From assembly GCA_001600815.1 (NCBI GenBank), contig BCKZ01000006.1, positions 372,001-436,000 on the forward strand: 64,000 bases of DNA, in the 5' to 3' direction. The position numbers and the translations under genes were made by a program. How positions within the stretch are numbered: the stretch's first letter is position 1; each line of letters begins with the position of its first letter. Positions 10,795-46,914 of the stretch are shown in pieces. This DNA comes from Alloascoidea hylecoeti. Taxonomy: Eukaryota. Below the pieces are notes generated by a model. That model was given only the letters and a program-made list of their open reading frames with translations, had not been told where the DNA came from and searched no databases.

Positions 10795-11437
10795 TTTTAA
10801 TATAATTTTAGTGATTCCAATAATTGTTGTGGCTTGAAATGATTTTAATGAATGAAGAAGCTTTGTAATTTCGATGAGGTAAAGAATAATTAGAATTTAT
10901 CATGGAAGTTTTACATAACAACAATAAAACAAAACAAAAAAATAACGTTTGTTATTAATTATAAGTTATACCGGTATATTTAAAATTTTAAGTGTGGAAA
11001 ACTCTCAAGTAGAGTTTATGGCAACAGCAAATAAACTTAGACACGAATTAGTATCATATAGCTATATTAATGAAGTATACATTTTTTGGGGTTGGAATAA
11101 CTATAGTATAAAGATTATAAGCCTATAAAATAGGGAGTTGACCTTTTAAGATAAGAATGGTTAATTGCAACAAGGAAGCTAAAAAAAAGAAACGATTCAA
11201 CTTTATCGGTATTATGGAGATAGTACAGAAAGGAATATAATTGAAATTCAATTTAAAAGCTTGATCTTTCTAATAATATTCTTTGGGTCTAATATGAATT
11301 GACGCAATGAAAAATAAATTAAATCAAGTTCAGTTTTATATGATATGATCTCACCCATATCTCCACAAAATTTACTATTCCATACTTAGAAGGATATTTA
11401 GGATTGACAACATTGTAATGAACAAGCTAGATTATTT

Positions 11438-19162: not shown

Positions 19163-22100
19163 ATTTAATTTTAGAGAGAATAGCAAAGTCCTAGATGTAG
19201 GCAGAATTTGATATATATAACATATTTAGAGGTGTATGATACATAAATTTCTAACTTACTTTGCTTGCGTCGCTGAGACTCTAAAAGGTAATAAGAAAGG
19301 AAATAAAACTCAAAGAAAAATAATTGGAATTAAATTTAATTAAAATGTATTAAAATGCGATAAATTAAAAGTAGATTTCTGTGGGCACACTAACATAACA
19401 TATCGAGAAACCACACTGCATCACGTCTAGCAACTAAAGAACCAAATTCTAAACCTAATCTTTACTTTCTTCCTCCTCTACTGCATATGCACGGTTGCAG
19501 ACCCCGGCCTTTATTTGTCCACTCCTTGCATGCTTTCCGCCTCTGCTACTTCTACATGTACACTAGCCATGCTTTCTCGAGTGGTCGAGTAGTCACAAAG
19601 CGCCACCCGGCAGTTTTAAACTCTTGAATTTTGTTTCTGATTTATTTGCAAAACCGAAAAATACAGAGTTTATACCTGGAATGATGTGCCAACCATATAG
19701 AGCTAGTTATAACTACTTTTTGATTAATTTTAAGCTTATAAATCATGGAAAATTCCAAATTAATAATATTGTTCCTGCTCCGCGATCATGAGGATGCCCC
19801 ATATCGGTCCTGCTCTTAATTCTTAATCCTAATAAATTAGCATTTTTACTATATATTATTAATTAAGACTGATTGATTATGACAATGGGAATTTCAAACC
19901 TCAAAATATAATTATAATTACGTGTCGCAGCGCTAACTAGCCAAATTGCTGTAAGATAAACGGCCGTTTGCAATCTACTCCGAATGGATCATGAGGCATG
20001 GTTCTTGCACATTAAAAACTATATGTGAAATTAACCCCTTTATGCATATCTGTTTAAATTTATTGCTTCTGACTTCCTTTGGATAGAATCATAAAGAAAT
20101 CAAAAAATAATAGTTCACACAAAACCTGCATAATGCTAAGATGTCTCTTCCCTAGATTTTCACGTGCACATATATATCCACATATATAAAAAAAAATTAG
20201 ATTCAAGACTTAATTTTAAAAATATCGAATAGTTTCTCATTCTGAATATTGCCTTAAGCTTGTCTTTCATGTTAACGTTAGCCGAAGATACCAGCACCAC
20301 ATGTTGCACACTCTTGCACAAGATCAACAAGCTTTGATATTTATAATGTTTCAACCACTGAATAATTTTCTACCATAATTCTCATGTAAGTGTAGCTTCA
20401 GATCATCAAAACCAGCTAATATGCATTATTTAGCTATATATATCACATTAATTATATATTACTTGTGGAAAGCAATCCGATTTCATTCATTCATTCGGTG
20501 CATATTCTCATTTTTTGCTTATTCTTGAAATTGAACCTGGCGTTAGGATATATGGAAGAAAATTCAGAAATTTTAAAATCAACATTGCAACTAAGAATAT
20601 TCAAGAGAAATTTAAAACCTAATTATATGAAGCCCAATTGCCATTTTCATTTCTTCAATTGATATTCCATGCTATATCACGATAATGGCTTATCGAAGTA
20701 ATAATATGTTTAGAATAATTATAATAATAATTACATAAACATCTAATTTCGATTCTATCTAGGCCTATATAGTATTAAAATTTGTTTCGATCAATATCGT
20801 ATAAACTTTTACATATGTAAAAATCATACAAATGATATAATCAATATAATGTAAATTTAAAGATTATGTATAATAGATTTACATAAGCCTATATAGTCTA
20901 TAACTATAGCTTTCTAATATTAGTTACCCTTTTTTTTCCTTGGTTGGTGCTTGTTATTATATTTTCTTTATAAAAGTTTCTATTAAAGCCTGCAGCTGGG
21001 TATGGGCATTGGACTTCTAGAGGCTTCTCCAAATGTAGGCAACACAATTTACATCTAAAAATTTATAAACAAAAAATAAAAGCATACCAGGGTTATCAAG
21101 TAATTATTGAAAATTTGAAATTAAAAATGCCATAACCAGACTCGTGACCCTACTCTTAAACTAGCAAGTTAATTATAAGGTTCTTTGATAAGAACTCAAA
21201 AGGTGAGAATTCCACCTGTATGTGTGTGTAATTGCCTAGGAGGGCGGAAATCTGGAACTGTGTCGGGTTTATTTGTTAACGTTAAGGAGGTACAATGATG
21301 CCCCATAGACAGCCTAGACAGCTACGTATATCAATATTATATTATAGCTAGCCTATGGCCCTGAATGTAGTAGGTAGCAGGTACGTAGAGGGAAACAGAT
21401 TAATGAATCGATTAATTCAGCTTTACAATTTAGATTATTTTATTTCACTTTAAATTTGGTTTTCCCTAATTATCATACACTCTTATTTATTTATTTTTCA
21501 TTTCTATCATATCATTCTTTCAGTCAGTTATGTGTTTACAATTGGAATATTTGACTCCAATTCAAAGTTATTGCAATTGTGTACCATACACACAGTCACT
21601 GCATAATTAAATAGGTGTTTCAGTGACATTAAGTTGTATCTATAAGCTTAAGGTAAGATATATATTATAGCTATGGTAATTTAAATTTAAAAATTATTAT
21701 ATAGTTGGAAACTTTTCAGCTATCGCAATTTCACACAAATGGTTTAATCTGAAAATGAGAATCATATAGTAAATTAATTGAAAGTTGATCTTTTTTGATA
21801 TTTTAATATGCATATCAAAACTGCACTTTTAAACTTTTACTTTTAACACCATTAACACCCAAAATGAGTAATATATGTTTCTTTACAAAAAGGCCCAGGT
21901 CTAGCTAGGCAATGCTATTCCCTCGCGGGCTAGCATCTGCGCATTTTAACATTTTTATAGCTAAATTCGTAGTTCCATTTCTCCCTACATTGGGTAAAAA
22001 AGATTGATAAACATTAAGTGAAATTTGAAAGATTCGCAATTATAGTTTTGCCATATTAGATACATCTATGACATAAATATACCTATATAGCTATAGGATA

Positions 22101-23851
22101 GGCATTCAAATAATTCGTGTGTTCAAATCTAAAATTCTAGGCGTATATTCATATAATTAGACAAATTATAAGTATCAAATCGATTGCAATATTGGGAAAT
22201 AAAGATTATTATACAACTTAGCACATATATAATTATTGCGATCATTATTTTGCTACTGATTGATTGTGTAAATTTGTAATTGTGTGAGACTGTGAGTCTA
22301 AATTTTTTTAAGCTAATTATAACTTAATTACCATTCTTCAAATCGATTATTATTATAATTATAGGCTAGGAGTTACATACATAGTTAAGCCGAGTCATGA
22401 TTTATAATATTTATTATATAACCCGCAATTAATGTTGTAATCAAGTAATATTAGTATATACGACGTGTTTTTCTTCATATTCTTTGTTTCTTCTTCTTAA
22501 TTTTCCTTGACTCACATAAACTTTCTTTTACCTTGCAATTTATGAAAACCTTGCTGCAAAATTTATACCATCTGGGAACGGAACTACGTAGCTGCTGAAC
22601 CAGTAATATAGGATCTGTAATAAAATTAAATCCAAAGCTTAAGAACCAAATATTAATTAAATGATCAGGTTTAGATGACTAGTAGCATATATACTACCGA
22701 AACCCAGCAGATCCTAATGCGATTCATTTTTAATCTGGCAGTTTTCTATTTATTATAGCCAATATTAGCCATACTATGATATATATACATGGATATATTG
22801 CAATTGTAGTTCGGTGTGTTGTATATAGCAAAAGATGTGGTGGCAGCTAATGTTAAAAGAGTGCACGTGTGGAGATCATATTATACAACAATATCAACCA
22901 ACACAAGGCATGGAATGGTTATTGATCAGTCAATAATAAATAGATATCAAAACTTTTCCACCTAGGCCTATATTTGATATGGATAGCTTAGGATCTTTAG
23001 AGGTCAAGAGTTTACTATAAAATTTCATTCTGAATGGGATCTGTCTCCATGAAAATGAATACGAACTTTATGATTGAGTTGGCGAATAAATGAGACTAGT
23101 GTAAAAATAAATTATCGATTGTTGTTTCAATTTAGACATGTAGTTAATTTTACTAAAGCTTAAGTTCTTGCTATTGGACATCACGAATTGTACCAAAAGA
23201 AACTAGCTTCGACACAACGTTAACTAGTACTCTTGTAGTTGATCTAAGATCTTCAAAGAATGGGAAAGTTACAATATCTAATTACATACATGTATGTCTT
23301 TATTTTAAGACAATAATCACTTGAAAATTATTAAAAAATATGTCACATTTCAGGCCCATTGGTCAATCAATTGCAATATATAATATACAGGTCGATCGAT
23401 ATTTCCAGATCCTTCTTTTATAAAGAATAGATGGTTTACAATTGAGTATGATTTATCGCATACAACCCACCTAACCGAGTTGCGGTTGCAGAATTTGTGC
23501 ATTATAATTGCAGCTGTACCTTTAAAATCTTTTCTAAATACTGGAGCCTAGCAACGAAACACAATTACAATAAAGCTAATAAAGTACCCAAACTGCCTTC
23601 CTGTTCCACTTTAGTGCTTCCAATTTGACTGCTTCGCCCACCACCTAAATGGATAGATATGTAATTATGCCGATCAGGCTATCATTATCTAAGGGGAGTT
23701 TGTTATAAAACATAAACCTATATATTAATTAAGTTAAGGATGAACGAAGCATATAATCAATAAATATGGAACATCCGGATCCGCATTATCGTCTAGGCTT
23801 AACCAGCAATATATGGTATATAATGGATCTAGAAGAAATCAATAATATCTA

Positions 23852-24107
23852 CAGACCCCCTCCACTTTGTCAAGGGACCCTGCTAATTCATGCGCTAGCG
23901 TTTGGCCATTCTTTTGGATACTTATTAGACTATATACACCAGATATTCGGCTAACTTAAAACGCGGCCAGGAGAAATGGTAAGTAACTGTTATAAATTTT
24001 GGTGAATATCTAGTCATTATATAGATATAGGTAATATTGTTATGTCAAATAAATCGCCGAATTACGTAATCCAAAATGGCAGGGTCTCTTGACAAAGTGG
24101 AGGTCCG
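23852..24107. mobile_element. MITE family B, about 256 bp, about 33-bp TIR, TA-flanked (Tc1/mariner-type non-autonomous element)
   Basis: Left TA|CAGACCCCCTCCACTTTGTCAAGGGACCCTGC; right GCAGGGTCTCTTGACAAAGTGGAGGTCCG|TA; no coding capacity inside. Confidence 0.75.
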
Positions 24108-27100
24108 TAGATAAACTCATATATAATTATATACATTCTCCGTATCCCCCCGATCTAATCCTTATAATTATGTTATTTCAGCAATTAATTGCAAGAACAA
24201 ACACAAAATATTCTCTTTAATTTTCGATCTACCAAAGTAGAAGGCAATCAACTTAATAATTAATTAGGTTAACGTTATACCGGTATATAAGTTATAACTA
24301 ATGTTTATAGCTGTACAGTATACATATATATACATAGCCACAGTTGTTTGATATCTTCCATCCAACTTTTTCCAACTTTCATTCCTTCACGATTGGGAGG
24401 GTGACATCGATTCTTGTGGCACTCGGTGAAGAGTTCGGACCTTAATTATGGAACCTAATTTAAGACGAGCAGGCTCCTGTGGGCATACACTATTACCAGC
24501 TATCCACTCTCACCAAGCTGAAACCCTGTTTCATTACAATTGTGAATAAACTCTAGTTGCTAATGATTTTTGTCCATTAAGGCACCCACTGCCACCCAGT
24601 GGGTTTTATCATCTCTCCGGGTCCTCCTCCTTAAGCTTGTTACTGCCGAGGAAACAATACACTTCCAATCCCTTATATTTTTTCCTGAGAAACCATGCAA
24701 TTAACCCTCACATAACCACCAGTAAAGCCGTTCTTGGTTGGTTTCTTGATGGTGGTGTTCATCCTCCTCTAAATTCCTTCGGTCTACCAACTAATCGATA
24801 TCGCCCACTCCCATGAAGTTGCCCAGTAGTTACTAGTTAGCCGATTCTTTTCTCCGTTGGTCAATTAAAGGCGGGGGCGCTTATTTAGCTGCTGATCTTG
24901 ATTGTCCACCATTGATATTGGAGAGTTGAACTAATCCGGCATTCCTTGTAATAAGTCTGATCGATCATCGATGTAATCGGCTCATAGAAAGACGATTTTT
25001 TCATTGTTGTTATCTATCAGTATATACATGGCTGCATTATGCATTGAGCGGGTTAATTTGGGCCACGTGAAGAACCTCATCATTTTATACATTATTAAAT
25101 AATGTAAGTAAATGAATTATAAATATGCGGAATTAATACCCAACTGAAATATATTTGCTCTTAGAAAGAGTGAAGTCCCAGTTCACCCTTAAAAGGATGA
25201 TTTTTGTACTTCAGCGCGACGACAGGTTGGACCCTTTAAATTTTTTAAAATTTTTCTCTGTAATATTCTGGGACAATATTGAATTTTTCGTACAATATTA
25301 CAATATTGGTTACGATCACGATAAAAGTTTATGATATGTACTTCATATAATTATAATTTATAAATACCACTGAATCATCTAATAAATATATTAAAATTAG
25401 AATTTTTAACCGAAAAGTCAAAATTTTTTAATTATGAATGCCAAAATATTCAAGTTGCATAGCTAGCTGCACTGTTTCTTTCTGATCATGACCCCTTTTT
25501 GTTTGCTTTCTTTTTTAGGACAAAACATATAAATTTTCATGTATGTGAGAATCTAAGTAAGGGTAACACCTCAAATATGAAATTAGATTATGTAAGAGTA
25601 TACAATAATTTATGTAATATGAGAGCCACTAATCGAGATTTTGTTATCGATTAATTAGAAACATTAATATTAATATTCATTTCTTAATGATATACAATGA
25701 ACAGAAAATTTAGAAACTAAATTAGTTATATCACAGATCGACAAGAATTTGGTTGTAATTAATTAAAACAAAAAAGTGTCAACGATCGATCAGTCAACCA
25801 TGTGTAGGATGTCAAAAAAATCTTAAGCGGTTAATATTTAGGGCATAAATTTACTATAGTTATACAACCAGTGAGAGAAATTTAAAAATTTAAGTCCGAG
25901 TTCATATATGCTTGGAAGTACTATACGTACTACATGTAGCTATTTTATTTCTTTCTTGATCGTTAAAATTGTGGATAGGTTTCCAAATAAAATCTATATC
26001 ATGCTGATCATCATCAACTATATATGAATATATACGTGTATGGTCACTATGGTGCCTATATTGAAATGAGAATCATGATCAAGATCATTATAGCTAGCCT
26101 ATATATCTATATCAGTCCTAGCTTGAATTGCGATTTCTTTTTGTATCATGATGATGTATGCATATATGTGCTCGTAAGTTATGAGTCGTAACTTTAATAT
26201 TTTAATTATAATAAGTGTTACACGAACAATTAATAGTAACAAATATTTGGATAAAAAGGTGATTAGTAAGCACATACTTAGTATCTAACTAGCAATTATA
26301 AGGTCCTTTCAGGTGCCGTAAATCAAATCGAATTAATGCGGATTCTTGGTCATAAGCTAATTAAGGCTTTTTAGTAATTCTAAACCTCGGCTATATCCTT
26401 GCGGCAGATGCCGAATATAGTAATGGAACTATGGAAGCAATACAAAGTAATTTCTGCTTCTTTTTGTAATCGGAAGCTTAATAAATTTATCATATTATGA
26501 TAAAAACGGATGTAAATATTGTGGTTCTACACATATGCATGTTTCCATAGCTTTTATAACTTATAGCTACTGTGGTGTTATACCCGCAACTATATACTGA
26601 CTTATTATGCATAATACTAGTGCCAAAACTAATTATAGAAGCATTATAGATGCAGATTCTACATTTAAATAGCTATATGGTGATCAAAAGAGAGCAGATA
26701 AATTTAAATAAATAACATCTTGCTTCTTACGGGCGCTAATCAACACACACCTCAAAGTGATGCTGACTAATACATACAGACAAAAAGATAGACTAAAAGA
26801 TATAAAGATGACGAGGGTGCTAACCATAATTCATATAGGGCATAAACCTGTGGTTTATTCGGTTGTCTGTATTAATCCCAATTTGGGTGTGATATCGATA
26901 TTGCAATTAATATTGTGCATTAATTTGGAAAACTGGGTTTACCATCAAAAACTATCCAACATTATTAATTTAATAATGATTCAGTGACTTGGACATACAC
27001 AGTTACACACGTATAGCTAATTTAGCTAAAGGTATCAATTTAATTTAGTTATATCTACTCAAATATAGTTGAATGATATATTAATTAATATATAATTAAC

Positions 27101-28414
27101 AGTCCTGCGCATGATGTATAGTTCGATCGCGACTCATGGCATGTTATTACTTATTAGTTAAAGTTTTATGCAATTATAATAACTATCCTAATTATCATGA
27201 ATATTTAGTGAAGCAGGCTATGGGCTATATTGTAATTTCTAAATATGTAATATCATCAATTTGTAATCACAGTTGGATAATATAAGCCTATAACTAAATT
27301 AAAATTAGTATACATTTAAACATACATAGTATCTATATACAGACAATTGCAATTACAAGGGCATTTTGTCCTTCATTTGGAATCTATACCTACAGTGGCT
27401 GTGATTAAAATAAAAGTAGGATATGAAGACCTTAATGTATTTGTGCTATACCCATAATCGAAATTAACGCTTAATGTAACTAAGAAATATTGTATCAATA
27501 CAAGAAACACTACAACATCATTCACGTTGTACCAATATAATATATGTAATACTATGTATGAGTGCATTGATAGCTTAAGATGTATACCATATGCATTCAT
27601 ATAACTTTATAAACTCAAATAGGGCGGATAACAAGTGTCAATTATATGCTAGAGGCTTCAAACGGCAACATAAGCACCTACATACATAGCTTTATTCACC
27701 ATAGGCGCATTAGTGCATAATAATACATGGTCTCTTTTATAATGAGAAGAGAAAAGTAAAAAACTGTTCAAAAGTCAAATTACCCGAATGTTCAAACTTC
27801 AAACGCACTATTATATTAATACATCATCAACTTTAATGGCTAGTACTAGTCGAAATACCCAGTTAGATATTCTATCTACTTAAACGGCGATCCATTAATT
27901 CAACACATTGACATTGCGTCAGATATGAGGCCTTACGGTTGGGTCCCACATTATTGAACAGATATTATTAAATGTGGTGTTATGTTTGCGGTGGTTTACC
28001 ACAATTCCAGGCTTCATTTTTACTAGTTTTTGTAGTACTGCGGCCGGTATAGAGAACTAAATAAATGTATGAAGAAAGCAAATGAATGTAAATTATGAGT
28101 TCTAACTGCACTATTAGGTATGTGGTATGTACGATTTTTTCAAACAAAAATAATTTGCGTAGCTCTAAAATATTAGAATATGTCAATGAATTAAAAACAA
28201 AATAAACAAAAGAAAAGAAGCGAACCAGAACCGGAAGAAAAAAGAAACAATAAACGAGAAACGTATTAGACAATGAAAAAAACAAAGAAACAACCAATAT
28301 TGGAAAAAAGGAATTGTAAAAGGACCAGATACAAATAATAAGAAATAGTAACAAAAAAAAAAGCTTTAAATTTATAAATAATAATAAATATGTGAATGGA
28401 TAATACTTTCATGA

Positions 28415-35618: not shown

Positions 35619-36237
35619 TATAAGTTCAATTTAAAAATCTGTAGGTTGCAATTTTGAGATTGAAGAGACTTCAACCGCTGCGCACATATAAGTTTTTTAT
35701 ACCTTTTCGTTTTATTATATAGTATACCAAATGTTATTAATCCATAAGAAGAAAAATGTAATTGGAGAGAAGATTTAGAGGATTATATTTTTCAAATCTT
35801 ATCCGGTTATGATCTAGCACGTGTGCACGTAGATCCTGAGACTTTAAGCCATACGTATTCCCCTCTAAAACCACCCTTTGCGCTGTCAAGTTAAGCTGAC
35901 ACTACATGGAAACTGAAGAAAATATCATCCACAGACAAGAATCAAACCTGCATTGTGTGTTAAATACAAATCATTGACTCACGGAAAGGTGAACTGTCCT
36001 CGACAAAGCCCTTTTAATCGGTCTATTGATTACTTGCTTCAGGATTTCGCTCTCGTTAAGTTGAAACTGCCACCGTTGCGATCTCCGGGTACCCACCATC
36101 TGTGATGAGAAAGAATGCGAATAGCGACGATGCGTTTAACGTCCGACAGAAAACAGCACTTTTTTTTTCAGATGGTCATTAGCTAAGTGGCATGGTCTAC
36201 TCAAAGCCGTCGCCATTTGCAGCTGAAGCAAAAATAA

Positions 36238-36322
36238 AGCCCTACGGGGGGCTCGAACCCCCAACCTTGTGATAACCATATAAAGTAAGAGTCACACGCT
36301 CTACCGATTGAGCTAGCAAGGC
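36238..36322 (-). tRNA. tRNA-Lys(CTT) with a 12-nt intron (36285-36274)
   Basis: GCCTTGCTAGCTCAATCGGTAGAGCGTGTGACTCTTA-[CTTTATATGGTT]-ATCACAAGGTTGGGGGTTCGAGCCCCCCGTAGGGCT; 73 nt after splicing at the canonical 37/38 site. Confidence 0.95.
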
Positions 36323-37849
36323 CTGTTTTTTCTCTACCGTAAATGGGATCTAAACTAGAGGATGATGTTCTATTATAGTACTCAGGGAAGAAAGAAGAGT
36401 GTCAAGAATACACAAAAATAAGAAGCATAGAAAAAGAGGTTTTTATTTCACTATATATAGTATATATTTCCTCAGAATTTACATAGTTTCTAGTTATATA
36501 ATTTAATTGGAAAATATATGAAAAGTTAAAAAATGACATAGTAGAAGAAAATATATATGCAGATCAATATACGTTACATTCTTTTCCCAATAGTTCGTTA
36601 ATTTAGTAATAACATACTTTCACTGTGCTGGTATTTTTGATAAATGATAAGGGGTTTCTCATTAAGTCTGGTTTGTTCGTTTCTAGTTATAATATTATTT
36701 GGAAATCTAAGAAAGGTTTTCTTCTTCTATATCTGCAAACAACGACGTTTGAGTAAGAGAAATATATGAAGGTTCTTCTAGAACCAGGTTTAAAAGGGAT
36801 TAAAAATGTAACGATTTTACACCGAATAGCATTGTAAAAGTAAATCTAATTTTGAATTAAAGTTTTGTGAATAGAATCGGGAAGTAAATGTTAAAGGACT
36901 CTCTAATCTAAAGTAGCAAGAACTTGAGGAATTTATATGATGCAATGATATCGCTAAAAGCAATAATATGGACATGCATATGCATAAGAATCATTTACGA
37001 CGGATATAGTACATCGATATATATCCTTAATCATTATTATTTTAGAATGAAGTTGGGGCTTGAAAATGGAATTAAGCATCTCTCTTGTGGTTGCAATTAG
37101 ACAGACGATTTAGTTATAAAAAGTTGATCATGATTTTAAATCCTACGAACTCATTAATTATAAGACCACCATTCTTTGAATATCTGACAATAGTTAATTA
37201 TAACACATAACGGTGCTTTTATAACTAATTCAATTAAATTTTAATGATATGCACAGAGCGCTTTAGTGAGACAATTGGAGTTTTGAAAATTTAAAGAAAA
37301 GCTATTAATTTCAATATAGATTAAACATAAAATTCAATTTGTTATAACTGAAATATCGAATAACCTTCAAAATAACTTACATTTTAAGTCTAGCCTTTTG
37401 GAACAATAATATATAATACCCCATCTTTATATAATATATAGCCAGTTCATCGTTTAAATAGGTTTCTCTCTTTAAATTGGTTTCTCTCTTATCATTAAGT
37501 TTCAATAAAGTTCATAAGTATTAATTGAAAATTTAAGAATTTGAATGATTAAAATTGCAATATTATTTGTGATCATGGAAATCTAGTTGGCAATATATTA
37601 ATTCATTTGTCGTGATATCTTATCTATCTATATATTCTCTTTTCTCTCGATCCTTTATTTCATTTCAAATATTCCATAGAATGACTTCTAGAATACTCTT
37701 AGGCGAGATTTCAAGTAATTGCAGTCTTAAAAAGCAATTGCAATCAACTAGCTAGGGTTACTGAAATATGTAATCTAAGTGAACATGCCTTCCCAATTTC
37801 AAAAATAAACAAGGGATTTAATATTAACTGTCCTAAAGTAGATAAAAGA

Positions 37850-38518: not shown

Positions 38519-40047
38519 TTATTTGAAAACTTTACCATCAGCAACTTCTCTAGATTCACCATTAATGATTAAAGGTTTATCCCAAGCCCATAAATCATTG
38601 ATCAATTCTTTACTTTCTGGTTTAGTAGCATCTAATTTAGTGAAATCGTAAGATTCCCAATCTGGTGCAACATCAAAAGCAGGTTTGAAATCTTGTCCTC
38701 TAACCAAGAAAGCACCAGTAATACCATTATTATTATTTTCACCATAAACAACCATACAACCAAATAAATATTTTGTTGAAGCAGATAATCTATTGAAAAA
38801 ACCACCAACTAAATTATTTGACATAAAAGTTAAAGTTAATTCATCATTATATTTATAATCGACTTTCCATAATGACCATTCAGCTGGGTCATAATTTTCC
38901 CAAAACCATGGTAAAGCGGTTGGACGTGTATCTTCATTTGAATAAACACGTTTCCATTCATCTAATGGGATTTTTGATTTACCTAATAATTCCAAAGGAT
39001 GTTTTGGTTTTTTTTCTTCAGCAGCCGGAGCCGGAGCAGCATCACTAGCAGGGGCGGCTTCAACTTTCTTAGCTTTTGGTTTCTCTTGTTGTGGTTGTTT
39101 TGCTTTCTTCTCCTTCTTTGGTGGAGTATATTTAATCATCTCTTCAGCAAATTCAAAATCTTTAAACGATGGACTTAAAATTGGATGAGCAATTAAAGTT
39201 TTAAACCATCTAACTATATTGACATGATTTGATCTCCATTCTTTTGATAAAATTAATTTAAAAGACAAAGAAATAAGAGTAGCAGCAAATAAATCAGCTA
39301 AAGTGACTCTTTCAGAAACAAGATAAGTATAATTTGAAAGACGAGTTTCAGCAACTGATAAAAACTTTTCTAATTTCTCTAAACTTGTATCAATACCTTT
39401 TTTATTATACTGCGTATAACCAAGAATTGGAGCAATGACACCAAAACTTGCACTGAAAATATCAGAATTGGTGAATGACAACCATTTTAAGATTTCAGCA
39501 TTTTCTTCCTCAGTTTTACCAAGGAACTTGTGTTCTCCAACAAATTTAAGGACTGGAAATATAAATGAATAATAGTTAGTAATTTATAGTTATATGCAAG
39601 TTTTTTTTTTTTTTTTTTAATAAAATAACTTTAAAATATGAACATGTTTTTTTTTTTCAGATCTACATTCTCAACACGGAGGATTAAGACAGGGATAACT
39701 GTATAGAATAAAAATGTCTCATCATTTAAAAAACAATCATGATATCATATTGATAAATAAAGAAGGAAAAGAAAAAAGAAAACATACGGTAAGTGTTAAT
39801 GGCAATACACTCAGTTAATTTGAAACCCTTTTGACCTCTAAAAGCAGGACGTGATTTTAAAGGAAAGTCTTTTTCAAATTGATCATCAGAACCTTCTTGG
39901 ATGGTGATATCCAAGTCGTAGTATTTGACCAAATCCCTGGCGAGGATAGAACGAGGAGACTATTATATATTAGATGATGAAAACATCAATTAATACTGCA
40001 AAGAATAAACAACATACGGCGTTAACGTAGAGAGTTCCGAGAGACAT
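38519..40047 (-). CDS. TEF4: Translation elongation factor eEF1B-gamma (Tef4/Cam1), 3 exons
   Basis: Exons 40047-40018, 39959-39788 and 39552-38519. Introns 40017-39960 (GTATGT...TAG) and 39787-39553 (GTATGT...TACTAAC...CAG). GST-like N-domain and C-domain LDEWKRVYSNEDTR...APDWESY...DGKVFK. Confidence 0.95.
39655..39728 (-). ncRNA. snR38: Intronic box C/D snoRNA snR38 (guide for 25S rRNA Gm2815-equivalent)
   Basis: In TEF4 intron 2: C box ATGATGA (39725-39719), guide AGTTATCCCTGT complementary to LSU ACAGGGATAACT, D'-like CTTA, D box CTGA (39660-39657). S. cerevisiae snR38 is hosted in the TEF4 intron. Confidence 0.85.
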
Positions 40048-40108
40048 TTCGGTTCAATTGTTTTTGTTTGTAAGAAGAAACTTGAAGAAATTGGAAGAAA
40101 CAAACGAG

Positions 40109-41934: not shown

Positions 41935-43497
41935 TTACTGATAAGGTGGTGGATTATCATCAAGATCACAATCATAATCATAAATATGATAATGATTTAG
42001 AAGATTGATATCAATATTACGAGATAATAAAAAACTCTGCTTTAAAATATCACTAAAATTAATACTAATTCCAAAATCATTTTTCAGAAATTTAGAAAAT
42101 GGTCGAGTCGTTTTACAAGTCGACTGTGATTGGGTATCATCCTTGAGGTTGTAATTGAATTGATTTGAACTTGAATTCAATTTAAGTGATGTAATATAAT
42201 CCTTATCATGATCTTTATTATAGTTATTTGTTCCCAATTTATGAATTAAAGGTGATTCTGACATTAAACGAGATAATATTGGAATTTCTAGAAATTTCCT
42301 ATGAGAATTATCCTCTTCATAATTATTAGTATTAGTTGTTGAACTATTAAAGGCCACATTTGACATAACATCATTAATATTTTTGACTTCTGAGGTTTCA
42401 GATTGATTGTTTTGACATGTATTATTATTATTATTTAATTGAAATTGTTCTAGATTAAGATGAATGACTCTTCTTTTTGGTTTTGAATTTTTTGAATGTC
42501 TTTTGTTATAAAGTTTAGTTTGATGATTTGCAATCTCTGAACAGTAATCACGGACATCATTTGATTCTTTAGCCATTTTTTCATCTATTAACGAAATATC
42601 TTTTGATGTTGTTAATGATTGTTCTTTTTTTAAAATTGCTTGATCAATTGGGTTGTCATTTTTATTATTTATAAGACACTTATTGGTACAATTGCAATCT
42701 TTCCAATTTCTATTCCAATTGCAATTGGGTGTCACTAGATGTGGCGAGACTGTTGAGAGAAAATATGGTGGTAATAACAATCCATTATTTCGCATCTGTA
42801 GTAGTTGTAAAGGAACATAATGACATGTTTTATTATCCCTATATTTAAACCCATTACCGGTGGTAGTATTATCAGGAGTTGTATATTCTTTGCATAAGTT
42901 CTGTATAACAATAGGAACTTGTGTTTTAATTATCACCCTAATATATCTTTCAATTTGTTCCTTTAAACCATCTATTAATTCAGGATAAGTATCATCTATA
43001 TTTGTAGAAATGATTATATTTTTTAAAGGATCATTTAAAAATTCTATTTGTGGACCGATTTTAGAATTAAAAGTTATAAAAAATTTTGACTTAATGGATA
43101 TCGATGAAAGTTTAATAAGTAGTGGAATTGAAAGACTTTTATCTGTTAATATAAATTGTGGTGAAACCTCTGTGAGACATGATTTATCTTTTTTTGATAA
43201 GATTGAAGAGAAAGGATTTGTTTCGATATTAGTTGATAAATAGATTTCTAAATCTCCATCTTGATAAATGAAACTTAAAGTTGCTTTAAATTCATCATTA
43301 TCATTAATTTCAAATTCCTCAACTTCGAATATTGGTTGTATTGTGCCTAACTTTAAATCATGTAAAAGTAATGGGGGCGATATTTTAGGAATATTATTGA
43401 GATGATCGGAAAGTTTGAGGACATCCTTCATAAGCTTCGTTATCCATTCTTGAAAAGAAATTTGGTCGATAGTCGACCAGTTGAAATAAAAAGACAT
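41935..43497 (-). CDS. MDM34: Mdm34, ERMES SMP-domain subunit (divergent), 520 aa
   Basis: N-terminal MSFYFNW, SMP-like LKLGTIQP...ETNPF...FLNDPLKNI.ISTN.D, basic KPKRRVI and C-terminal PY motif PPPYQ. Confidence 0.8.
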   Translation of the reverse strand: MSFYFNWSTIDQISFQEWITKLMKDVLKLSDHLNNIPKISPPLLLHDLKLGTIQPIFEVEEFEINDNDEFKATLSFIYQDGDLEIYLSTNIETNPFSSILSKKDKSCLTEVSPQFILTDKSLSIPLLIKLSSISIKSKFFITFNSKIGPQIEFLNDPLKNIIISTNIDDTYPELIDGLKEQIERYIRVIIKTQVPIVIQNLCKEYTTPDNTTTGNGFKYRDNKTCHYVPLQLLQMRNNGLLLPPYFLSTVSPHLVTPNCNWNRNWKDCNCTNKCLINNKNDNPIDQAILKKEQSLTTSKDISLIDEKMAKESNDVRDYCSEIANHQTKLYNKRHSKNSKPKRRVIHLNLEQFQLNNNNNTCQNNQSETSEVKNINDVMSNVAFNSSTTNTNNYEEDNSHRKFLEIPILSRLMSESPLIHKLGTNNYNKDHDKDYITSLKLNSSSNQFNYNLKDDTQSQSTCKTTRPFSKFLKNDFGISINFSDILKQSFLLSRNIDINLLNHYHIYDYDCDLDDNPPPYQ

Positions 43498-43884
43498 TGA
43501 TTTAAGAAAGAAGGTGATGATTCCAGTTGCTTAAGTAGTGATTAATGTGACCCTACTAACTAACTTATGATAATTATAATATCAATATAAAAAGTATATG
43601 AAGAGTAGTTCAAAACACTAAAGTGAAAATGAGAAAAGGAGAAGAAAATATATTTATAGAAATGGGTATGATTTTGTGTAAGTTATCAATATTACTATTT
43701 TATCCGTTCCGGTTCATATAAAATGGAGTTTAAAAAAAGTTGCCTGACTTTACCAGTATTAAACTTAATTAACAGAGACATTTATTTTCCCCCAATAAAA
43801 GAACTCATGATAAAATCAATCTATTAATTAAAGCCTTAAAACCTGTGGATTTTGATTGATTGATTGTTTAATATTAATGGTTAA

Positions 43885-44300
43885 CTAATTTGGGTTTGAT
43901 ATTTGAGCACGGCTTAACATGGCATCAATTTTCTCAATTGCATTTTTTTCAGAAATTGTTGTATCTTTTAACTCGTTGAAGAATTGAATAGATGAAATAG
44001 AATCATTCATTATAACCGTGAATTGGATCTTAGAATTGGATTCTTCATTTTGTGAAATATATTCAGAATCTTCTTCTACTTTCTGTAAATAAAAAAAACA
44101 TGAAAATGTTAAAACTATTATAATTAGAAAATATTCAAAGAGTGTCTTACTTCGAATAGAATGACAGTTCCACTAGAAGGGTCAATGTTAAATAAAAACC
44201 CTTCAAGGGGTTCCTTTTTGGCATCTGGTTTAAACAACACCAAAACTTTTTGCCCTCTCTTCTGTTCCACCTGTGATGGAGGAATATTGTAAAATGTCAT
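43885..44300 (-). CDS. Small Sm-fold protein, Gemin6-like, 2 exons, 115 aa (absent from the ORF track)
   Basis: Exon 1 44300-44151 is exactly 50 codons; 68-nt intron GTAAGA...TTCTAAT...TTTACAG (44150-44083); exon 2 44082-43885 is 65 codons plus TAG. Protein: MTFYNIPPSQVEQKRGQKVLVLFKPDAKKEPLEGFLFNIDPSSGTVILFE/KVEEDSEYISQNEESNSKIQFTVIMNDSISSIQFFNELKDTTISEKNAIEKIDAMLSRAQISNPN. Confidence 0.75.
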
Positions 44301-44411
44301 GATATATTAAATACACAAAAAGGAGTAGCTGAGAATCTGAGGGTGTGTGGGAGTTTTTATGTTTTCTGATAACCTTTTTCGAAGCTTTTCTTTCCACCGA
44401 CACACCGAAAA

Positions 44412-45473
44412 ATGGAGTCCAACCCAAGACCACCGCCTATTAGACGCAAGAGCACCTTAATTCTCACCGACGATATCGAGTTCGATAAGTTGAACCTATC
44501 GAAGCAAGAGGAACATGAACCTAAATTGTTGGGACGAGCTGGTTCCGGTGAACAGATCCAGCTCCATGAAATGCACATTGATGAACCATCCCAAACTTCA
44601 ACCTCTCAAGACCAAACTTCCGTTGATAATGCTTTAAATTCTCAGCAGACCTCAAATGCCTCTAATGATTCTTCAAAACCACCCGCAAATCCAAATATGT
44701 TACCGGTAGAAATTAAATGGGTTCAAGGAGGAAATAATGTCTACGTCACTGGTTCGTTTACATCATGGCGTAAAATGATTAGATTACCCAAGGTTGGTGA
44801 TGGGAATTTCCTTATTTGTTTAAATTTGCCTATTGGTACCCATCGCTTTAGATTTGTCGTTGATGACGAGTTGAGATTCTCGGACTTCTTGCCGACTGCT
44901 ACAGATCAGCTGGGAAACTTTGTAAATTATATCGAGGTGTTACCATTAAATTCTCCTTATTCGAGACCATCTTCACAGACTAATTTACAAATGAGTACAC
45001 CTGTTGAAGCCGTGTCTTCTTCCCAAACTCCAACAGATACAGTCCCAGCTGTTCCAGGTACTGCGGAATACAATTATCAAGGAGATGATGATGAGATGGG
45101 CAATGGTTATACAAGATTTCATGAAGAAACGGCACCAAAGCCCACATATGAATACACTTCTGAAATACCTGCTGTTTTCACAGACCCTTCTATTATGGAA
45201 CAGTACTATTTGACCTTAGATAATAGTAACTCATCATCAAATAGTTGGCTGACTCCACCTCAATTACCACCTCATTTGGAAAGTGTTATATTAAATAATT
45301 ATAATACTGATAAGAATGCTAATAACGTCAGTGGTGCTTTACCAATTCCCAATCATGTTGTGTTGAATCATTTAGCAACAACTAGTATTAAACATAATAC
45401 TTTAGCTGTTGCCAGTATATTACGATATTCGAGGAAATATGTTACTCAGATTTTATATGCTCCTTTACAGTAA
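44412..45473 (+). CDS. GAL83: Snf1/AMPK beta subunit (Gal83/Sip2 type), 353 aa
   Basis: CBM48 PVEIKWVQGGNNVYVTGSFTSWRKMI...GTHRFRFVVD; ASC domain WLTPPQLPPHLESVILN...LPIPNHVVLNHLATTSIK...KYVTQILYAPLQ. No Gly2. Confidence 0.9.
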   Translation: MESNPRPPPIRRKSTLILTDDIEFDKLNLSKQEEHEPKLLGRAGSGEQIQLHEMHIDEPSQTSTSQDQTSVDNALNSQQTSNASNDSSKPPANPNMLPVEIKWVQGGNNVYVTGSFTSWRKMIRLPKVGDGNFLICLNLPIGTHRFRFVVDDELRFSDFLPTATDQLGNFVNYIEVLPLNSPYSRPSSQTNLQMSTPVEAVSSSQTPTDTVPAVPGTAEYNYQGDDDEMGNGYTRFHEETAPKPTYEYTSEIPAVFTDPSIMEQYYLTLDNSNSSSNSWLTPPQLPPHLESVILNNYNTDKNANNVSGALPIPNHVVLNHLATTSIKHNTLAVASILRYSRKYVTQILYAPLQ

Positions 45474-45690
45474 AAACCATATTTATAATTAGCTATAGTT
45501 TCTTTTTGTACCCTCTCTTTATAAAACAGATAAAAGAAACTATTATAGAAATAATACAAGTTAAGAATTGAAACTACATAATGAAATGTATTGGAAATAT
45601 AAACTAGCAAATCAATATTCTTCAACTTATAACAATTATATAGTCCTTTTTATCCTCCCATCACCCTCTCTTTTTAAGCTTCTAATGAAA

Positions 45691-46914
45691 TCATGTTTGC
45701 TTGCATTCACTTGGCTCTTGCTTCTTTCCATCAGCTGCTCCTTCCTCTTCATCTTCCTCATCATCATCGTCGTCGTCGTCATCGTCATCTTCGTCTTCAT
45801 CTTCTTCACTTCCGTCCTCGTAAAGCTCATCAAAGTCATCGTATTCCAGAGCGGATCCTGTAAACCAGTCAATTGCCCTTGGGATCAGTTTATCTTTGAT
45901 CTCTTCACCTAATTGATAATCCAATTCTAATCTTTCTTCTAAGTCGTCTTCTTCTTCATTTTCTTCCTCCTCTTCATCTTGCTCAGGCGATGGTGGCGTT
46001 GGTGGGCTGAAGAAGTTAAAGAAAGATTCAATAGGTGTGATCTTTTCGACGACTCTGGTTTGCTTAGTATGCTTATTTCTCTGTTTCCTCTTCTCCACTG
46101 TGATTGTTAAATTCTTTTCGGATGATTTCCAATTAATCTTATCACCAGTAGCGTGATCATAAACAAACTCTCCCGTGTATCCGAGCTCTTCCTGATAATA
46201 ATAACTTTTTGTAAGAACTTCATTTGAGAAATATGGATTTGATTTGAAATGGAAATTAAGAGAAAAACCTGGTGTATCAAGATATTTCAACTGTATATCA
46301 GAGAGATATACCAAAGCTTCAGTATCACGTTCTGAAATGATATCAGATAGTGGGCGTAGGTTTTCCATTGTTGTGAGCCAAAAGTTTGCAATGCCTTTGA
46401 TATCAACATCCTCCTTATCTTCAGAAGTCTCTTCTTCTTTGGTTGAATCTTCTTCTGTGTCTTCCTTTTCTTCATCTTCACCTTCTTCAGCTTCTTCAAT
46501 GTGGAGCGCTTTACCCTTTTCAATTTCTTCTTCTGTAGGTTCTACATCACCATTAACAATATCTCTTCTCCTGTTATATAATGGCTCATATTTTTTAAAG
46601 TATTTCTTTTCTAGTTCTAATAATTCTTTCTGGAATTCTTCCTCTAACTTTAAATGATCCTTTTGAATTGCTTCAAGAGCAGCCACCCTGTTCTTAACAG
46701 ATTTGGGTAAAGAATCAATATAACCTGAATCTTTTCCAACCAAAGTTCCTAATTTTCCCTGGATCAATGAGAGTAATTGCGAAGAAGGTTCTTCAGCAAT
46801 TGTAGGTTGTGTTTGTGGATGTTGCTTTAAGTAAGATCCTGTAATAGAAGCAGGTGTGTTTTGAGGTGTAGGAGCCTGTGCAATCTCACCTAATTTCTTG
46901 CGAATATCACTCAT
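45691..46914 (-). CDS. NAP1: Nucleosome assembly protein Nap1, 407 aa
   Basis: APTPQNTPAS, KGIANFWLT, NPYFSNEVLTK and ESFFNFFSPP motifs, acidic tail, C-terminal CKQT. Confidence 0.95.
   Translation of the reverse strand: MSDIRKKLGEIAQAPTPQNTPASITGSYLKQHPQTQPTIAEEPSSQLLSLIQGKLGTLVGKDSGYIDSLPKSVKNRVAALEAIQKDHLKLEEEFQKELLELEKKYFKKYEPLYNRRRDIVNGDVEPTEEEIEKGKALHIEEAEEGEDEEKEDTEEDSTKEEETSEDKEDVDIKGIANFWLTTMENLRPLSDIISERDTEALVYLSDIQLKYLDTPGFSLNFHFKSNPYFSNEVLTKSYYYQEELGYTGEFVYDHATGDKINWKSSEKNLTITVEKRKQRNKHTKQTRVVEKITPIESFFNFFSPPTPPSPEQDEEEEENEEEDDLEERLELDYQLGEEIKDKLIPRAIDWFTGSALEYDDFDELYEDGSEEDEDEDDDDDDDDDDEEDEEEGAADGKKQEPSECKQT

What the first reader, a model, noticed from the sequence alone, without database searches (positions are those of the whole stretch)
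43885..44300. Hidden spliced Gemin6-like gene: possible SMN-Gemin snRNP assembly complex in a budding yeast
Seen: an apparently empty interval between MDM34 and GAL83 holds a clean two-exon gene (50 codons, 68-nt GT-AG intron, 65 codons), missed by the ORF track. The product has Sm1-like KVLVLF...EGFLFNIDPSSGTVILF and Sm2-like FTVIMNDSISSIQF. From memory, human Gemin6 has EVRVT...KGWVLTTDPVSANIVLV...VTGIMGHAVQTVE, and the DP.S..(I/V).L and IM...(I/V)..(I/V) signatures fit Gemin6 better than Lsm12 or core Sm/Lsm proteins. Known: S. cerevisiae keeps only the Gemin2 homolog Brr1, while fission yeast has SMN-Gemin2/6/7/8. Inference: this intron-richer yeast may retain an unannotated SMN/Gemin6/7/8 module.
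Basis: partly seen in the sequence, partly recalled or inferred. Interest (0 to 1): 0.85.

Follow-up and report, generated by a model that had tools for sequence, protein, structure and literature searches.

The report
Hidden spliced Gemin6-like gene in yeast
A small two-exon gene that plain ORF finding misses encodes a Gemin6-type Sm-like protein in a budding yeast, hinting that parts of the SMN snRNP-assembly machine lost from baker's yeast survive in other yeast lineages.

Summary
On the minus strand, exon 1 (44300-44151, 50 codons), a 68-nt GT..AG intron (44150-44083) and exon 2 (44082-43885, 65 codons plus stop) give a 115-aa product.

A search with exon 1 alone found 11 small fungal proteins, from Pneumocystis, Nadsonia, Blastobotrys and unnamed yeasts. 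A profile of their C-terminal halves alone picks out exon 2 among 1833 six-frame ORFs of the window (E 8.6e-8). One Pneumocystis-like ORF breaks off at the same codon as the window's intron.

AlphaFold models of two homologues have an Sm fold plus a C-terminal helix. Human Gemin6 is the top Foldseek match for both. For the Pneumocystis model it also leads by VIA (Z 11.1 against 8.5 for the next chain).

The sequence evidence is weaker. The only Pfam family hit by more than one member is Gemin6, all below threshold, in 5 of 18 members. A PDB profile search ties Gemin6 with LSm14. ESM neighbours mix LSM12, AD and Gemin6 families.

No genome or RNA data were available. So splicing is inferred from homology, and SMN, Gemin7 and Gemin8 could not be sought.

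Verdict: a real, unannotated, probably Gemin6-type gene, and a new member of a known kind.

The parts
44151..44300 (-). Exon 1: ATG plus 49 codons (N-terminal helix and Sm1-like strands 1-3; ends ...GTVILFE)
   Evidence: phmmer with this piece finds 11 small fungal proteins. It carries all 8 invariant family residues: R15 G16 G34 L36 N38 D40 P41 G44.
44154..44249 (-). Sm1-like block (residues 18-49, KVLVLF...NIDPSSGTVILF)
   Evidence: Alignments A1-A4. It aligns to strands 2-3 of human Gemin6 in the PDB profile search.
44083..44150 (-). 68-nt intron, phase 0. 5' site GTAAGA (44150-44145). Branch-point candidates TTCTAAT (44129-44123) and TTTTAAC (44114-44108). T-run at 44098-44091. 3' site CAG (44085-44083).
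   Evidence: Read. It is the only frame-keeping GT..AG pair that retains both conserved blocks. A Pneumocystis-like ORF (P0031) diverges from its spliced relatives right after the same Glu codon. Two verified introns of the EF1-gamma gene in the window use GTATGT with ATCTAAT or TACTAAC.
43885..44082 (-). Exon 2: 65 codons plus TAG (acidic/Ser-rich loop, Sm2-like strands 4-5, C-terminal helix region)
   Evidence: A profile of the C-terminal halves of the homologues alone hits this frame with E 8.6e-8, the only hit below 0.88 among 1833 ORFs.
43981..44028 (-). Sm2-like block (IQFTVIMNDSISSIQF)
   Evidence: Aligned with F.V....DSI.SI of all homologues. No Arg-Gly pair stands in this block in the window product or in the family consensus.
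43888..43980 (-). C-terminal tail, predicted helical by homology (FNELKD...AMLSRAQISNPN)
   Evidence: BLASTP of the joined product reaches residue 106 against P. canis P0030 and 111 against P0027. The homologue models have a helix after strand 5, which aligns to the end of the Gemin6 chain.
44412..45473 (+). Divergent neighbour: AMPK beta subunit (GAL83/SIP-type). Its ATG is 111 bp from the ATG of the new gene.
   Evidence: Pfam AMPK1_CBM 1.3e-29 and AMPKBI 1e-25.
41935..43497 (-).
   Evidence: 520-aa ORF. No Pfam family and no PDB sequence match.

Best explanation
This is a real, spliced, protein-coding gene for a 115-aa stand-alone Sm-fold protein. It belongs to a small, mostly unannotated ascomycete family (Pneumocystis, Dipodascales yeasts, several unnamed yeasts) that is most likely the short fungal form of Gemin6.

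Shown here: the exon-intron structure by homology, the family, and the Sm fold with a C-terminal helix whose closest solved structure is human Gemin6.

Inferred: like Gemin6 in fission yeast and human, the protein would pair edge-to-edge (its strand 4 with strand 5 of a Gemin7-like partner). Through Gemin8 it would be tethered to the YG-box oligomer of SMN. The SMN/Gemin6-8 module helps release pICln (Lot5 in budding yeast) from the Sm pentamer, so that the Sm ring can close on snRNA.

The family has no Arg-Gly pair in its Sm2-like block, so a protein-scaffold role is more likely than direct RNA binding.
For: Gene model:
- Exon 1 alone retrieves 11 small proteins (E 1.4e-8 to 6.6e-4, 42-60% identity).
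- Their contiguous sequences run colinearly through exon 1 and exon 2.
- A profile of their C-terminal halves alone finds only the exon-2 frame in the window (E 8.6e-8).
- The joined product scores 96.5 bits as a single domain.
- All 8 invariant residues are kept.
- P0031 breaks off at the same codon as the window's intron.

Identity:
- AF2 models of P0020 (pLDDT 83.7) and P0028 (pLDDT 84.9) show a helix, five strands and a C-terminal helix.
- In Foldseek against PDB, the only two matches with E <= 0.001 are human Gemin6 chains: 1y96_A and 7bbl_A at 4.3e-4 and 5.5e-4, and at 1.7e-4 and 3.3e-4.
- VIA second look on the P0028 model: 7bbl_A Z 11.1 (83 aligned, rmsd 2.4), 1y96_A Z 10.7, next chain Z 8.5.
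- VIA wide on the P0020 model: 7bbl_A Z 9.3 with the longest alignment among the Sm-fold rows (75 residues).
- Pfam: Gemin6 (PF06372) is the only family hit by more than one member, in a consistent register: 5 of 11 and 5 of 18.
- PDB profile search: gapless 51-55-residue alignments to Gemin6, E 1.5e-3 to 7.4e-3.

Mechanism of Gemin6/7/8: passages read in PMC8287938, PMC10470402 and PMC13249430.
Against: - No RNA evidence for the junction was obtained.
- The 5' site GTAAGA differs from the GTATGT of the two verified introns in the window.
- All Pfam Gemin6 hits are below the gathering score (best 17.2 bits against 23.9). 13 of 18 members have none, and none of the six Pneumocystis-type sequences (P0018, P0019, P0027-P0030) has any.
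- The PDB profile search ranks the LSm14 domain of Tral (2vxe_A, E 8e-4 and 1.5e-3) level with or above Gemin6.
- ESM Atlas neighbours are LSM12_LSM for exon 1 (0.86) and mixed AD/LSM12_LSM/Gemin6 clusters for P0020 (0.92).
- For the P0020 model, VIA ties Gemin6 with generic archaeal Sm chains (Z 9.9, 9.6, 9.3).
- The fold evidence is by proxy. The window's own joined product could not be handed to Pfam, AF2 or Foldseek. It is 32% identical to P0020 and 38% to P0028.
- No link to S. pombe Gemin6 (SPAC4D7.15) was obtained.
- No SMN, Gemin7 or Gemin8 could be sought in this genome.
Confidence: 0.62

Rival explanations
1. The gene is real and spliced, but it encodes a separate, fungus-specific stand-alone member of the extended LSm group (the LSM12/Gemin6/LSm14 neighbourhood). 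It would have another role, for example in mRNA decay or translation control, and would not belong to an SMN complex.
For: The sequence-level assignment is ambiguous. Tral LSm14 scores E 8e-4 against 1.5e-3 for Gemin6, and 1.5e-3 against 6.5e-3. ESM neighbours are dominated by LSM12_LSM and AD clusters. All Pfam Gemin6 hits are below threshold. No partner proteins have been shown.
Against: Two models rank Gemin6 first by Foldseek. One does so by VIA with a gap of more than 2 Z units and 83 of 85 Gemin6 residues aligned, including the terminal helices. Decapping-type LSm domains score lower: EDC3 Z 7.1-7.5 and the Edc3/Scd6 entry 4a54 Z 7.3. No Pfam hit to LSM14, LSM12_LSM or LSM in 18 members. 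The family also occurs in Pneumocystis, whose relative S. pombe has a Gemin6 (PMC8287938).
Confidence: 0.27
2. It is a truncated LSM12 paralogue: an LSM12-type LSm domain that has lost its AD domain.
For: The best ESM Atlas neighbours of exon 1 are LSM12_LSM clusters (0.86 and 0.83). The top clusters for P0020 carry AD and LSM12_LSM on 12-23% of members.
Against: None of 18 members hits PF21166 (LSM12_LSM) or PF09793 (AD) even at E <= 10. Only about 30 residues follow strand 5, so there is no room for an AD domain. Atlas scores at or below 0.92 with recognition below 2300 are leads only, by the tool's own notes.
Confidence: 0.07
3. It is not a functional spliced gene. It is either a chance ORF pair or a decaying relic in which only the 58-aa exon-1 ORF, or nothing, is expressed.
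For: No transcript data. The 5' site is non-consensus (GTAAGA). An in-frame AG at 44115 lies close behind a good TTCTAAT branch site. If used, it would give a 36-nt intron and a 51-aa product ending at a stop.
Against: Both exons match the family independently. All invariant residues are intact. The frame is open to a stop where homologues also end. A 36-nt intron would leave only about 26 nt between the 5' site and the branch point, against about 46 nt in the window's verified 58-nt intron.
Confidence: 0.04

Closest known systems
Gemin6 (SMN-complex subunit; human structures 1Y96 and 7BBL; S. pombe SPAC4D7.15; Pfam PF06372)
   Same: Sm-like fold with an N-terminal helix, five strands and a helix after strand 5. 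It is the best structural match for two family models. Gapless sequence-profile alignment over strands 2-5, with shared G..(hydrophobic)..DP.S...(I/V).L and (I/V).(hydrophobic)....(I/V)..(I/V) patterns. Gemin6 is the only Pfam family hit by more than one member. In S. pombe, full-length SpG6 was used as the counterpart of human Gemin6 residues 1-92 (PMC8287938, passages), which fits a short fungal form.
   Different: No Pfam hit reaches the gathering score. Identity to human Gemin6 is 11-18% in the structural alignments. It has no equivalent of the human C-terminal domain (Gemin6_C). Partners (Gemin7, Gemin8, SMN) are not shown. No direct link to the S. pombe protein was obtained.
LSM12 (LSM12_LSM PF21166 plus AD PF09793; S. 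cerevisiae Lsm12, name recalled)
   Same: ESM Atlas places exon 1 and a full-length homologue near LSM12_LSM/AD clusters. Both have a non-canonical LSm domain.
   Different: No AD domain and no room for one. No Pfam hit to either LSM12 model in 18 members. About 100-125 aa for the seven full-length family members, against about 190 aa for LSM12 (the LSM12 length is recalled).
LSm14/Scd6/Tral N-terminal LSm domain (PDB 2VXE; Pfam PF12701)
   Same: The Sm1 block is very similar (family consensus LEGRLFNIDP against YEGRLYTVDP in Tral). The PDB profile E-value is 8e-4 to 1.5e-3.
   Different: The alignment needs gaps. There is no long C-terminal region and no FDF-type motif in a 115-aa protein. 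No Pfam LSM14 hit. The related entry 4a54 (Edc3/Scd6 with Dcp1:Dcp2) scores lower than Gemin6 in the VIA search (Z 7.3 against 9.3).
Canonical Sm/Lsm proteins and Naa38/Mak31 (Pfam LSM PF01423)
   Same: Same small beta-barrel fold (Z 8-10).
   Different: No Pfam LSM hit. No Arg-Gly in the Sm2 block. Structural alignments are shorter (57-69 residues, against 75-84 for Gemin6). NatC Naa38 chains score Z 7.2-7.6.

Membership tests
Gemin6 (PF06372; SMN complex subunit) | Sm-like fold of the Gemin6 type (N-terminal helix, five strands, helix after strand 5), closest to solved Gemin6 rather than to other Sm-fold proteins | tested here: met
   Tested by proxy on homologues P0020 and P0028. Gemin6 is the Foldseek top 2, and these are the only matches with E <= 0.001. 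VIA Z 11.1 and 10.7 against 8.5 for the next chain on P0028. On P0020 the Z values are tied (9.3 against 9.9), but Gemin6 gives the longest alignment.
Gemin6 (PF06372; SMN complex subunit) | Sequence match to the curated family profile at or above its gathering score | tested here: not met
   Best hit 17.2 bits against a cut-off of 23.9. 5 of 18 members have sub-threshold hits (E 0.0052-0.25) and 13 of 18 have none. The window's two exon pieces give none when scanned alone. The joined product could not be scanned.
Gemin6 (PF06372; SMN complex subunit) | Heterodimer with Gemin7, linked through Gemin8 to the SMN YG box | not testable with these tools
   No genome is held for the window, and no Gemin7 candidate was available.
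Gemin6 (PF06372; SMN complex subunit) | Co-occurrence with SMN, Gemin2, Gemin7 and Gemin8 in the same genome | not testable with these tools
   No eukaryotic genome collection could be searched, and there is no G000.
Gemin6 (PF06372; SMN complex subunit) | Orthology to the experimentally defined fungal Gemin6 (S. pombe SPAC4D7.15) | tested here: inconclusive
   The family includes Pneumocystis (Taphrinomycotina). No S. pombe protein appeared. The published Gemin6 alignment (Supplementary Fig. S1 of PMC8287938) is an image and could not be read.
LSM12 | LSM12-type LSm domain (PF21166) | tested here: inconclusive
   No Pfam hit in 18 members at E <= 10. But the ESM Atlas neighbours are LSM12_LSM clusters.
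LSM12 | C-terminal AD domain (PF09793) | tested here: not met
   No AD hit in 18 members. Only about 30 residues follow strand 5 in the window product.
LSm14/Scd6 | N-terminal LSm14 domain (PF12701) | tested here: inconclusive
   The PDB profile hits Tral 2vxe_A at E 8e-4 and 1.5e-3. No Pfam LSM14 hit.
LSm14/Scd6 | Long C-terminal region with FDF/TFG-type motifs | tested here: not met
   The product is 115 aa and ends 31 residues after the Sm2 block.
Canonical Sm/Lsm (PF01423) | Match to the LSM profile and the Sm2 Arg-Gly RNA-binding signature | tested here: not met
   No PF01423 hit in 18 members. The Sm2 block reads F.V....DSI.SI with no Arg-Gly. That Arg-Gly defines Sm2 is recalled, not from a call.

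The most novel reading that the evidence does not exclude
A complete but unannotated SMN-Gemin6/7/8 module, built from tiny intron-containing genes, persists in several budding-yeast lineages: this AT-rich yeast, which reads CTG as Leu, and the Dipodascales yeasts Blastobotrys and Nadsonia. In that case the 'Brr1-only' snRNP assembly of S. cerevisiae would be a late, lineage-specific loss rather than a property of budding yeasts. These species would then offer stepwise natural intermediates for how a cell does without SMN.
Probability: 0.4. Interest if true: 0.72.

Novelty: new member of a known kind. Interest (0 to 1): 0.55.

Why it matters
The papers read here describe budding yeast as having only Brr1 (Gemin2) and Lot5 (pICln), and fission yeast as having SMN, Gemin2 and Gemin6-8 (PMC11965559, PMC13249430, PMC10470402; passages read). 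PMC10470402 explicitly predicts that Gemin6/7/8 homologues remain undiscovered in many species.

A conserved Gemin6-type gene in Saccharomycotina would show that part of the SMN machinery outlived the split from fission yeast. In Nadsonia, Blastobotrys and Pneumocystis the homologues are annotated only as 'hypothetical' or 'uncharacterized'. Here the gene is hidden by an intron.

It would name tractable yeasts, such as Blastobotrys adeninivorans, for asking what Gemin6-8 do and how they became dispensable.

It also shows how small split genes escape annotation. Most family members in the protein collection are ORF fragments that end in intron read-through.

Tried and rejected
- **Whole genome.** None is held for the window, so no search for SMN, Gemin7, Gemin8 or Gemin2 was possible.
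- **RNA evidence.** No RNA holder was listed. Laying the three offered metatranscriptome runs on 43600-45600 placed nothing.
- **Exon pieces alone.** They gave no relevant Pfam family, no meaningful PDB sequence hit, and no word-index hit among longer proteins.
- **Metagenome DNA scan with the family alignment.** 45 pattern matches, of which 9 passed tblastn. I looked at 2 of the 9. L008 lies inside a 464-aa ORF of a GC-rich contig, which I read as a bacterial lipoprotein, with ...DYLFNIDPGSGTT.... L009 has no ORF at the match. L001-L007 have the same identity and matched residues as L008, and I took them to be the same thing without reading them. So no DNA of true relatives was obtained, and synteny and intron positions in relatives could not be checked at DNA level.
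- **Long hits.** Seven of the 18 hits are 1072-3784 aa long, six of them with several matched stretches. I dropped them as repeat proteins sharing an F.IDP.SGT-like motif, without further examination.
- **Second and third word-index searches.** They added only Pneumocystis sequences. No S. pombe protein and no protein named Gemin appeared.
- **Literature.** Searches for Gemin6 with Saccharomycotina or yeast genera listed no paper reporting Gemin6 in budding yeasts. Kroiss 2008 is not held. Mier and Perez-Pulido 2012 was seen only as a cited title in PMC4666658.
- **Published Gemin6 alignment.** The supplementary alignment of PMC8287938 is a picture.
- **Earlier findings of this scan.** There is nothing on this genome or sequence. 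One unrelated Gemin6-TGS1 fusion note from another genome turned up.
- **P450 gene as a third intron comparator.** No frame-keeping GT..AG pair with a good 5' site was found.
- **Complex prediction.** Not used, because no partner candidate was available.
Full report
**1. What is in the sequence**

On the minus strand an ATG at 44300 opens 50 codons that end ...GTVILFE at 44151. The next bases are GTAAGA. Read through, the frame stops after eight more codons (the 58-aa ORF).

Sixty-eight bases further on, after TTTACAG (44083), a different frame runs for 65 codons to TAG at 43885-43887. The intron length is 2 modulo 3, exactly what is needed to join the two frames. The joined product is 115 aa.

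Inside the intron are two branch-point-like heptamers, TTCTAAT (44129-44123) and TTTTAAC (44114-44108), and a run of eight T before the CAG acceptor.

The ATG has A at position -3. It lies 111 bp from the divergent ATG of an AMPK-beta (GAL83/SIP-type) gene at 44412-45473 (Pfam 1.3e-29 and 1e-25). A NAP-family gene follows at 45691-46914.

I found no Pfam hit and no PDB hit for it, so that label is unverified.

**2. Is the two-exon model more than chance?**

An exhaustive phmmer search with exon 1 alone (50 aa) against 1.84 billion representatives gave 18 proteins with E <= 0.001.

- Eleven are small (70-100 aa), match once over query residues 3-50, and are 42-60% identical (E 1.4e-8 to 6.6e-4).
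- The other seven are 1072-3784 aa long, six of them with several matched stretches. I set them aside as repeat proteins without further study.

The eleven small proteins continue past the Sm1-like block into a short loop and a block F.V....DSI.SI. That block aligns with exon 2 of the window.

They had been found with exon 1 only, so this is an independent test of exon 2. I built a profile only from the parts of the 16 homologues downstream of Sm1 and searched all 1833 stop-to-stop ORFs of at least 20 aa in the six frames of the window.

- The exon-2 frame (43888-44172, minus) scored E 8.6e-8.
- The next best ORF scored 0.88.

Of 39 GT..AG pairs between 44300 and 43885 that give one open frame, only 44150/44083 keeps both conserved blocks.

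The joined product matches the family profile (built without window sequences) as a single domain of 96.5 bits. The exon-1 ORF alone scores 71.8 bits. BLASTP alignments reach residue 106-111 of 115 against Pneumocystis proteins. All eight invariant columns of the family (R15, G16, G34, L36, N38, D40, P41, G44) are kept in the window.

**3. Intron positions in relatives**

These are inferred from protein tails, not from DNA.

P0031 is an ORF-level prediction 69% identical to the Pneumocystis-type P0018. It reads ...GTVFVFE and then diverges (VVFLY, stop), whereas the annotated Pneumocystis proteins go on into the loop and Sm2. That is what read-through of an intron after the same Glu codon would give, so the window's intron position appears to be shared with Pneumocystis.

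Several other members end just after the S-(I/V)-x of Sm2 with tails such as G-M-Y, G-K-H, G-E-stop and C-K-F. These tails are what read-through of a 5' site of the GTATG, GTAAG or GTGAG type, split after the first base of the next codon, would encode. I read this as a second, phase-1 intron that the window's gene lacks.

So the family seems to have had two old introns. This yeast kept the first. Several other yeasts kept the second. The Blastobotrys-type sequences are contiguous.

**4. Splice signals compared with the window's own introns**

The EF1-gamma gene (GST_N in 39729-39959; GST_C and EF1G in 38522-39583) has two clear introns:

- 40017-39960, 58 nt: GTATGT ... ATCTAAT ... TAG.
- 39787-39553, 235 nt: GTATGT ... 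TACTAAC ... CAG. This one holds a snoR38 box C/D snoRNA at 39650-39733 (Rfam 62.3 bits).

So this yeast uses short introns and tolerates CTAAT branch sites. The 5' site GTAAGA of the new gene, however, is not the GTATGT seen in those two.

An AG at 44115 lies nine bases behind the branch A of the TTCTAAT branch site. If used, it would remove 36 nt in frame and give Phe and then a stop. I consider this unlikely, because the 5'-site-to-branch distance would be about 26 nt, against about 46 nt in the 58-nt intron. With TTTTAAC as branch site the distance is about 41 nt.

**5. No transcript data**

No RNA run holding the stretch was listed. Nothing from the three offered metatranscriptomes could be laid on 43600-45600. 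Splicing therefore rests on homology and signals only.

**6. Who has the family**

Names come from the sources, as follows.

| Protein | Species | Group |
|---|---|---|
| P0017 | Nadsonia fulvescens, hypothetical protein ODQ67369.1 | Saccharomycotina, Dipodascales |
| P0025 | Blastobotrys adeninivorans ARAD1B01166p | Saccharomycotina, Dipodascales |
| P0019, P0027-P0030 | Pneumocystis oryctolagi, P. sp. 'macacae', P. carinii, P. murina, P. canis | Taphrinomycotina |

All are named 'hypothetical' or 'uncharacterized'. The rest come from unnamed assemblies.

No precomputed Pfam domain is listed for any hit. No S. cerevisiae or S. pombe protein appeared. That could mean absence or divergence.

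In this window, CTG codons sit at conserved hydrophobic or Leu positions of the GAL83, NAP1 and MIP genes. By eye, then, this yeast reads CTG as Leu. The new gene contains no CTG codon.

**7. What the protein is**

*Fold.* AlphaFold2 models were made for two homologues, with the 18-row family alignment and no templates.

| Model | pLDDT | Secondary structure |
|---|---|---|
| P0020 (Blastobotrys type) | 83.7 | short helix, five strands, long C-terminal helix |
| P0028 (P. carinii) | 84.9 | helix, five strands, short C-terminal helix |

*Foldseek against PDB.* For both models the only matches with E <= 0.001 are the two human Gemin6 chains.

| Model | 1y96_A | 7bbl_A | Next best |
|---|---|---|---|
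| P0020 | 4.3e-4 | 5.5e-4 | 3.4e-3 (RimP) |
| P0028 | 1.7e-4 | 3.3e-4 | 1.9e-3 (archaeal Sm) |

*VIA-align.*

- On the P0028 model, a second look at 956 Foldseek candidates puts 7bbl_A at Z 11.1 (83 aligned, rmsd 2.4) and 1y96_A at Z 10.7. The next chain is at Z 8.5 with 62 aligned.
- On the P0020 model, the wide search of 48,161 representatives gives a tie: 1m5q_A Z 9.9 (62 aligned), 6tfl_A Z 9.6 (57 aligned), 7bbl_A Z 9.3. Gemin6 has the longest alignment among the Sm-fold rows (75 residues), reaching into the C-terminal helix.
- EDC3 (Z 7.1-7.5), the Edc3/Scd6 entry 4a54 (Z 7.3) and NatC Naa38 chains (Z 7.2-7.6) score lower.

*Sequence.*

- Pfam scans of the members give sub-threshold hits to PF06372 (Gemin6 Sm-like domain) in 5 of 11 and 5 of 18. 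E-values are 0.0052-0.25 and scores 11.9-17.2 bits, against a gathering score of 23.9. The register is consistent: protein residues about 26-76 on profile positions about 25-75.
- No other family is hit by more than one member. None hits LSM, LSM12_LSM, LSM14, AD or Gemin7.
- Profiles of the family against PDB sequences give the Tral LSm14 domain 2vxe_A at E 8e-4 and 1.5e-3, and Gemin6 at 1.5e-3 to 7.4e-3. The Gemin6 alignments are gapless over 51-55 residues; the Tral alignment needs gaps.
- ESM Atlas neighbours are LSM12_LSM clusters for exon 1 (0.86, 0.83; recognition 1928). For P0020 they are mixed clusters carrying AD, LSM12_LSM and Gemin6 on minorities of members (0.92, 0.92), with a 'gem-associated protein 6-like' cluster at 0.88.

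*Reading.* The Sm fold is certain. The structural evidence points to Gemin6. The sequence evidence favours Gemin6 but cannot by itself exclude the related LSM12 and LSm14 groups.

Architecture argues against those two. The protein ends 31 residues after the Sm2 block, with no AD domain and no FDF-type tail.

**8. A limit of the method**

So the window's own joined product could be analysed only in scripts against data already fetched. Pfam, AlphaFold, Foldseek and the Atlas were run on homologues that are 32-51% identical to it.

**9. How it most likely works**

The mechanism comes from passages of three papers.

- PMC8287938: S. pombe has SMN, Gemin2 and Gemin6-8. SpG6 (SPAC4D7.15) is essential, shares 21% identity with human Gemin6, and dimerises with SpG7. 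Gemin8 bridges Gemin7 to the SMN YG box. In the human structure, Gemin6 strand 4 pairs with Gemin7 strand 5.
- PMC10470402 and PMC13249430: SMN/Gemin6-8 are needed to release ICln from the Sm pentamer.

By inference, the window's protein would be the Gemin6 half of such an Sm-like heterodimer. None of its partners has been shown here.

**10. What is known, and novelty**

PMC11965559 and PMC13249430 describe S. cerevisiae as having only Brr1 (plus Lot5). PMC10470402 predicts undiscovered Gemin6/7/8 homologues in species that have SMN. PMC4666658 cites Mier and Perez-Pulido 2012 for SMN in 'filamentous and dimorphic fungi'; I did not see that paper itself.

My literature searches listed no report of Gemin6 in Saccharomycotina. 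I therefore rate this as a new member of a known kind. It is of moderate interest as it stands. It would be of higher interest if SMN, Gemin7 and Gemin8 are found in the same genomes.

Noticed in passing
window 19230-28410: About 9 kb has no ORF of 110 aa or more in any frame and no Pfam hit for its longest ORFs. There are no direct or inverted repeats of 40 nt or more. GC is about 0.30-0.32. This is unusual for a compact yeast genome. It could be a centromere-type or other gene-free region.
   Followed up: partly
window 38519-40053 (minus): An EF1-gamma (TEF4-type) gene has two introns, at 40017-39960 and 39787-39553. The second holds a snoR38 box C/D snoRNA at 39650-39733 (Rfam 62.3 bits). 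From recall, snR38 also sits in the TEF4 intron of S. cerevisiae, so the host-gene arrangement looks conserved.
   Followed up: partly
window 9236-10896 (minus): A cytochrome P450 gene is split into two adjacent ORFs (Pfam p450 positions 6-165 and 184-445). No frame-keeping GT..AG pair with a good 5' site joins them. It may be a pseudogene, an assembly error or an unusual intron.
   Followed up: partly
window 36237-36323 (minus): A tRNA gene (Rfam 54.1 bits) that ARAGORN reports with a four-base anticodon 'ctta'. It is probably an intron-containing tRNA.
   Followed up: no
window 44412-45473, 45691-46914, 7121-8053: CTG codons are rare (4.3 per 1000 in 16 ORFs). They fall at conserved hydrophobic or Leu positions of the GAL83, NAP1 and MIP genes. 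By eye this suggests standard CTG=Leu decoding, so the yeast is not in a CUG-Ser clade.
   Followed up: partly
window 44115-44150 (minus): Inside the new gene's intron, TCTAATTATAATAG closely resembles the branch-site-to-acceptor stretch of EF1-gamma intron 1 (TCTAATATATAATAG). Using that AG would remove 36 nt in frame and end the protein after one more codon.
   Followed up: no
proteins P0006-P0009, P0015, P0016, P0019, P0023, P0031: Most family members in the public protein collections are ORF fragments ending in what looks like intron read-through. The P. oryctolagi record (P0019) ends in C-K-F where its relatives continue FLNDKEP, so it may be a mis-annotated 3' end.
   Followed up: partly
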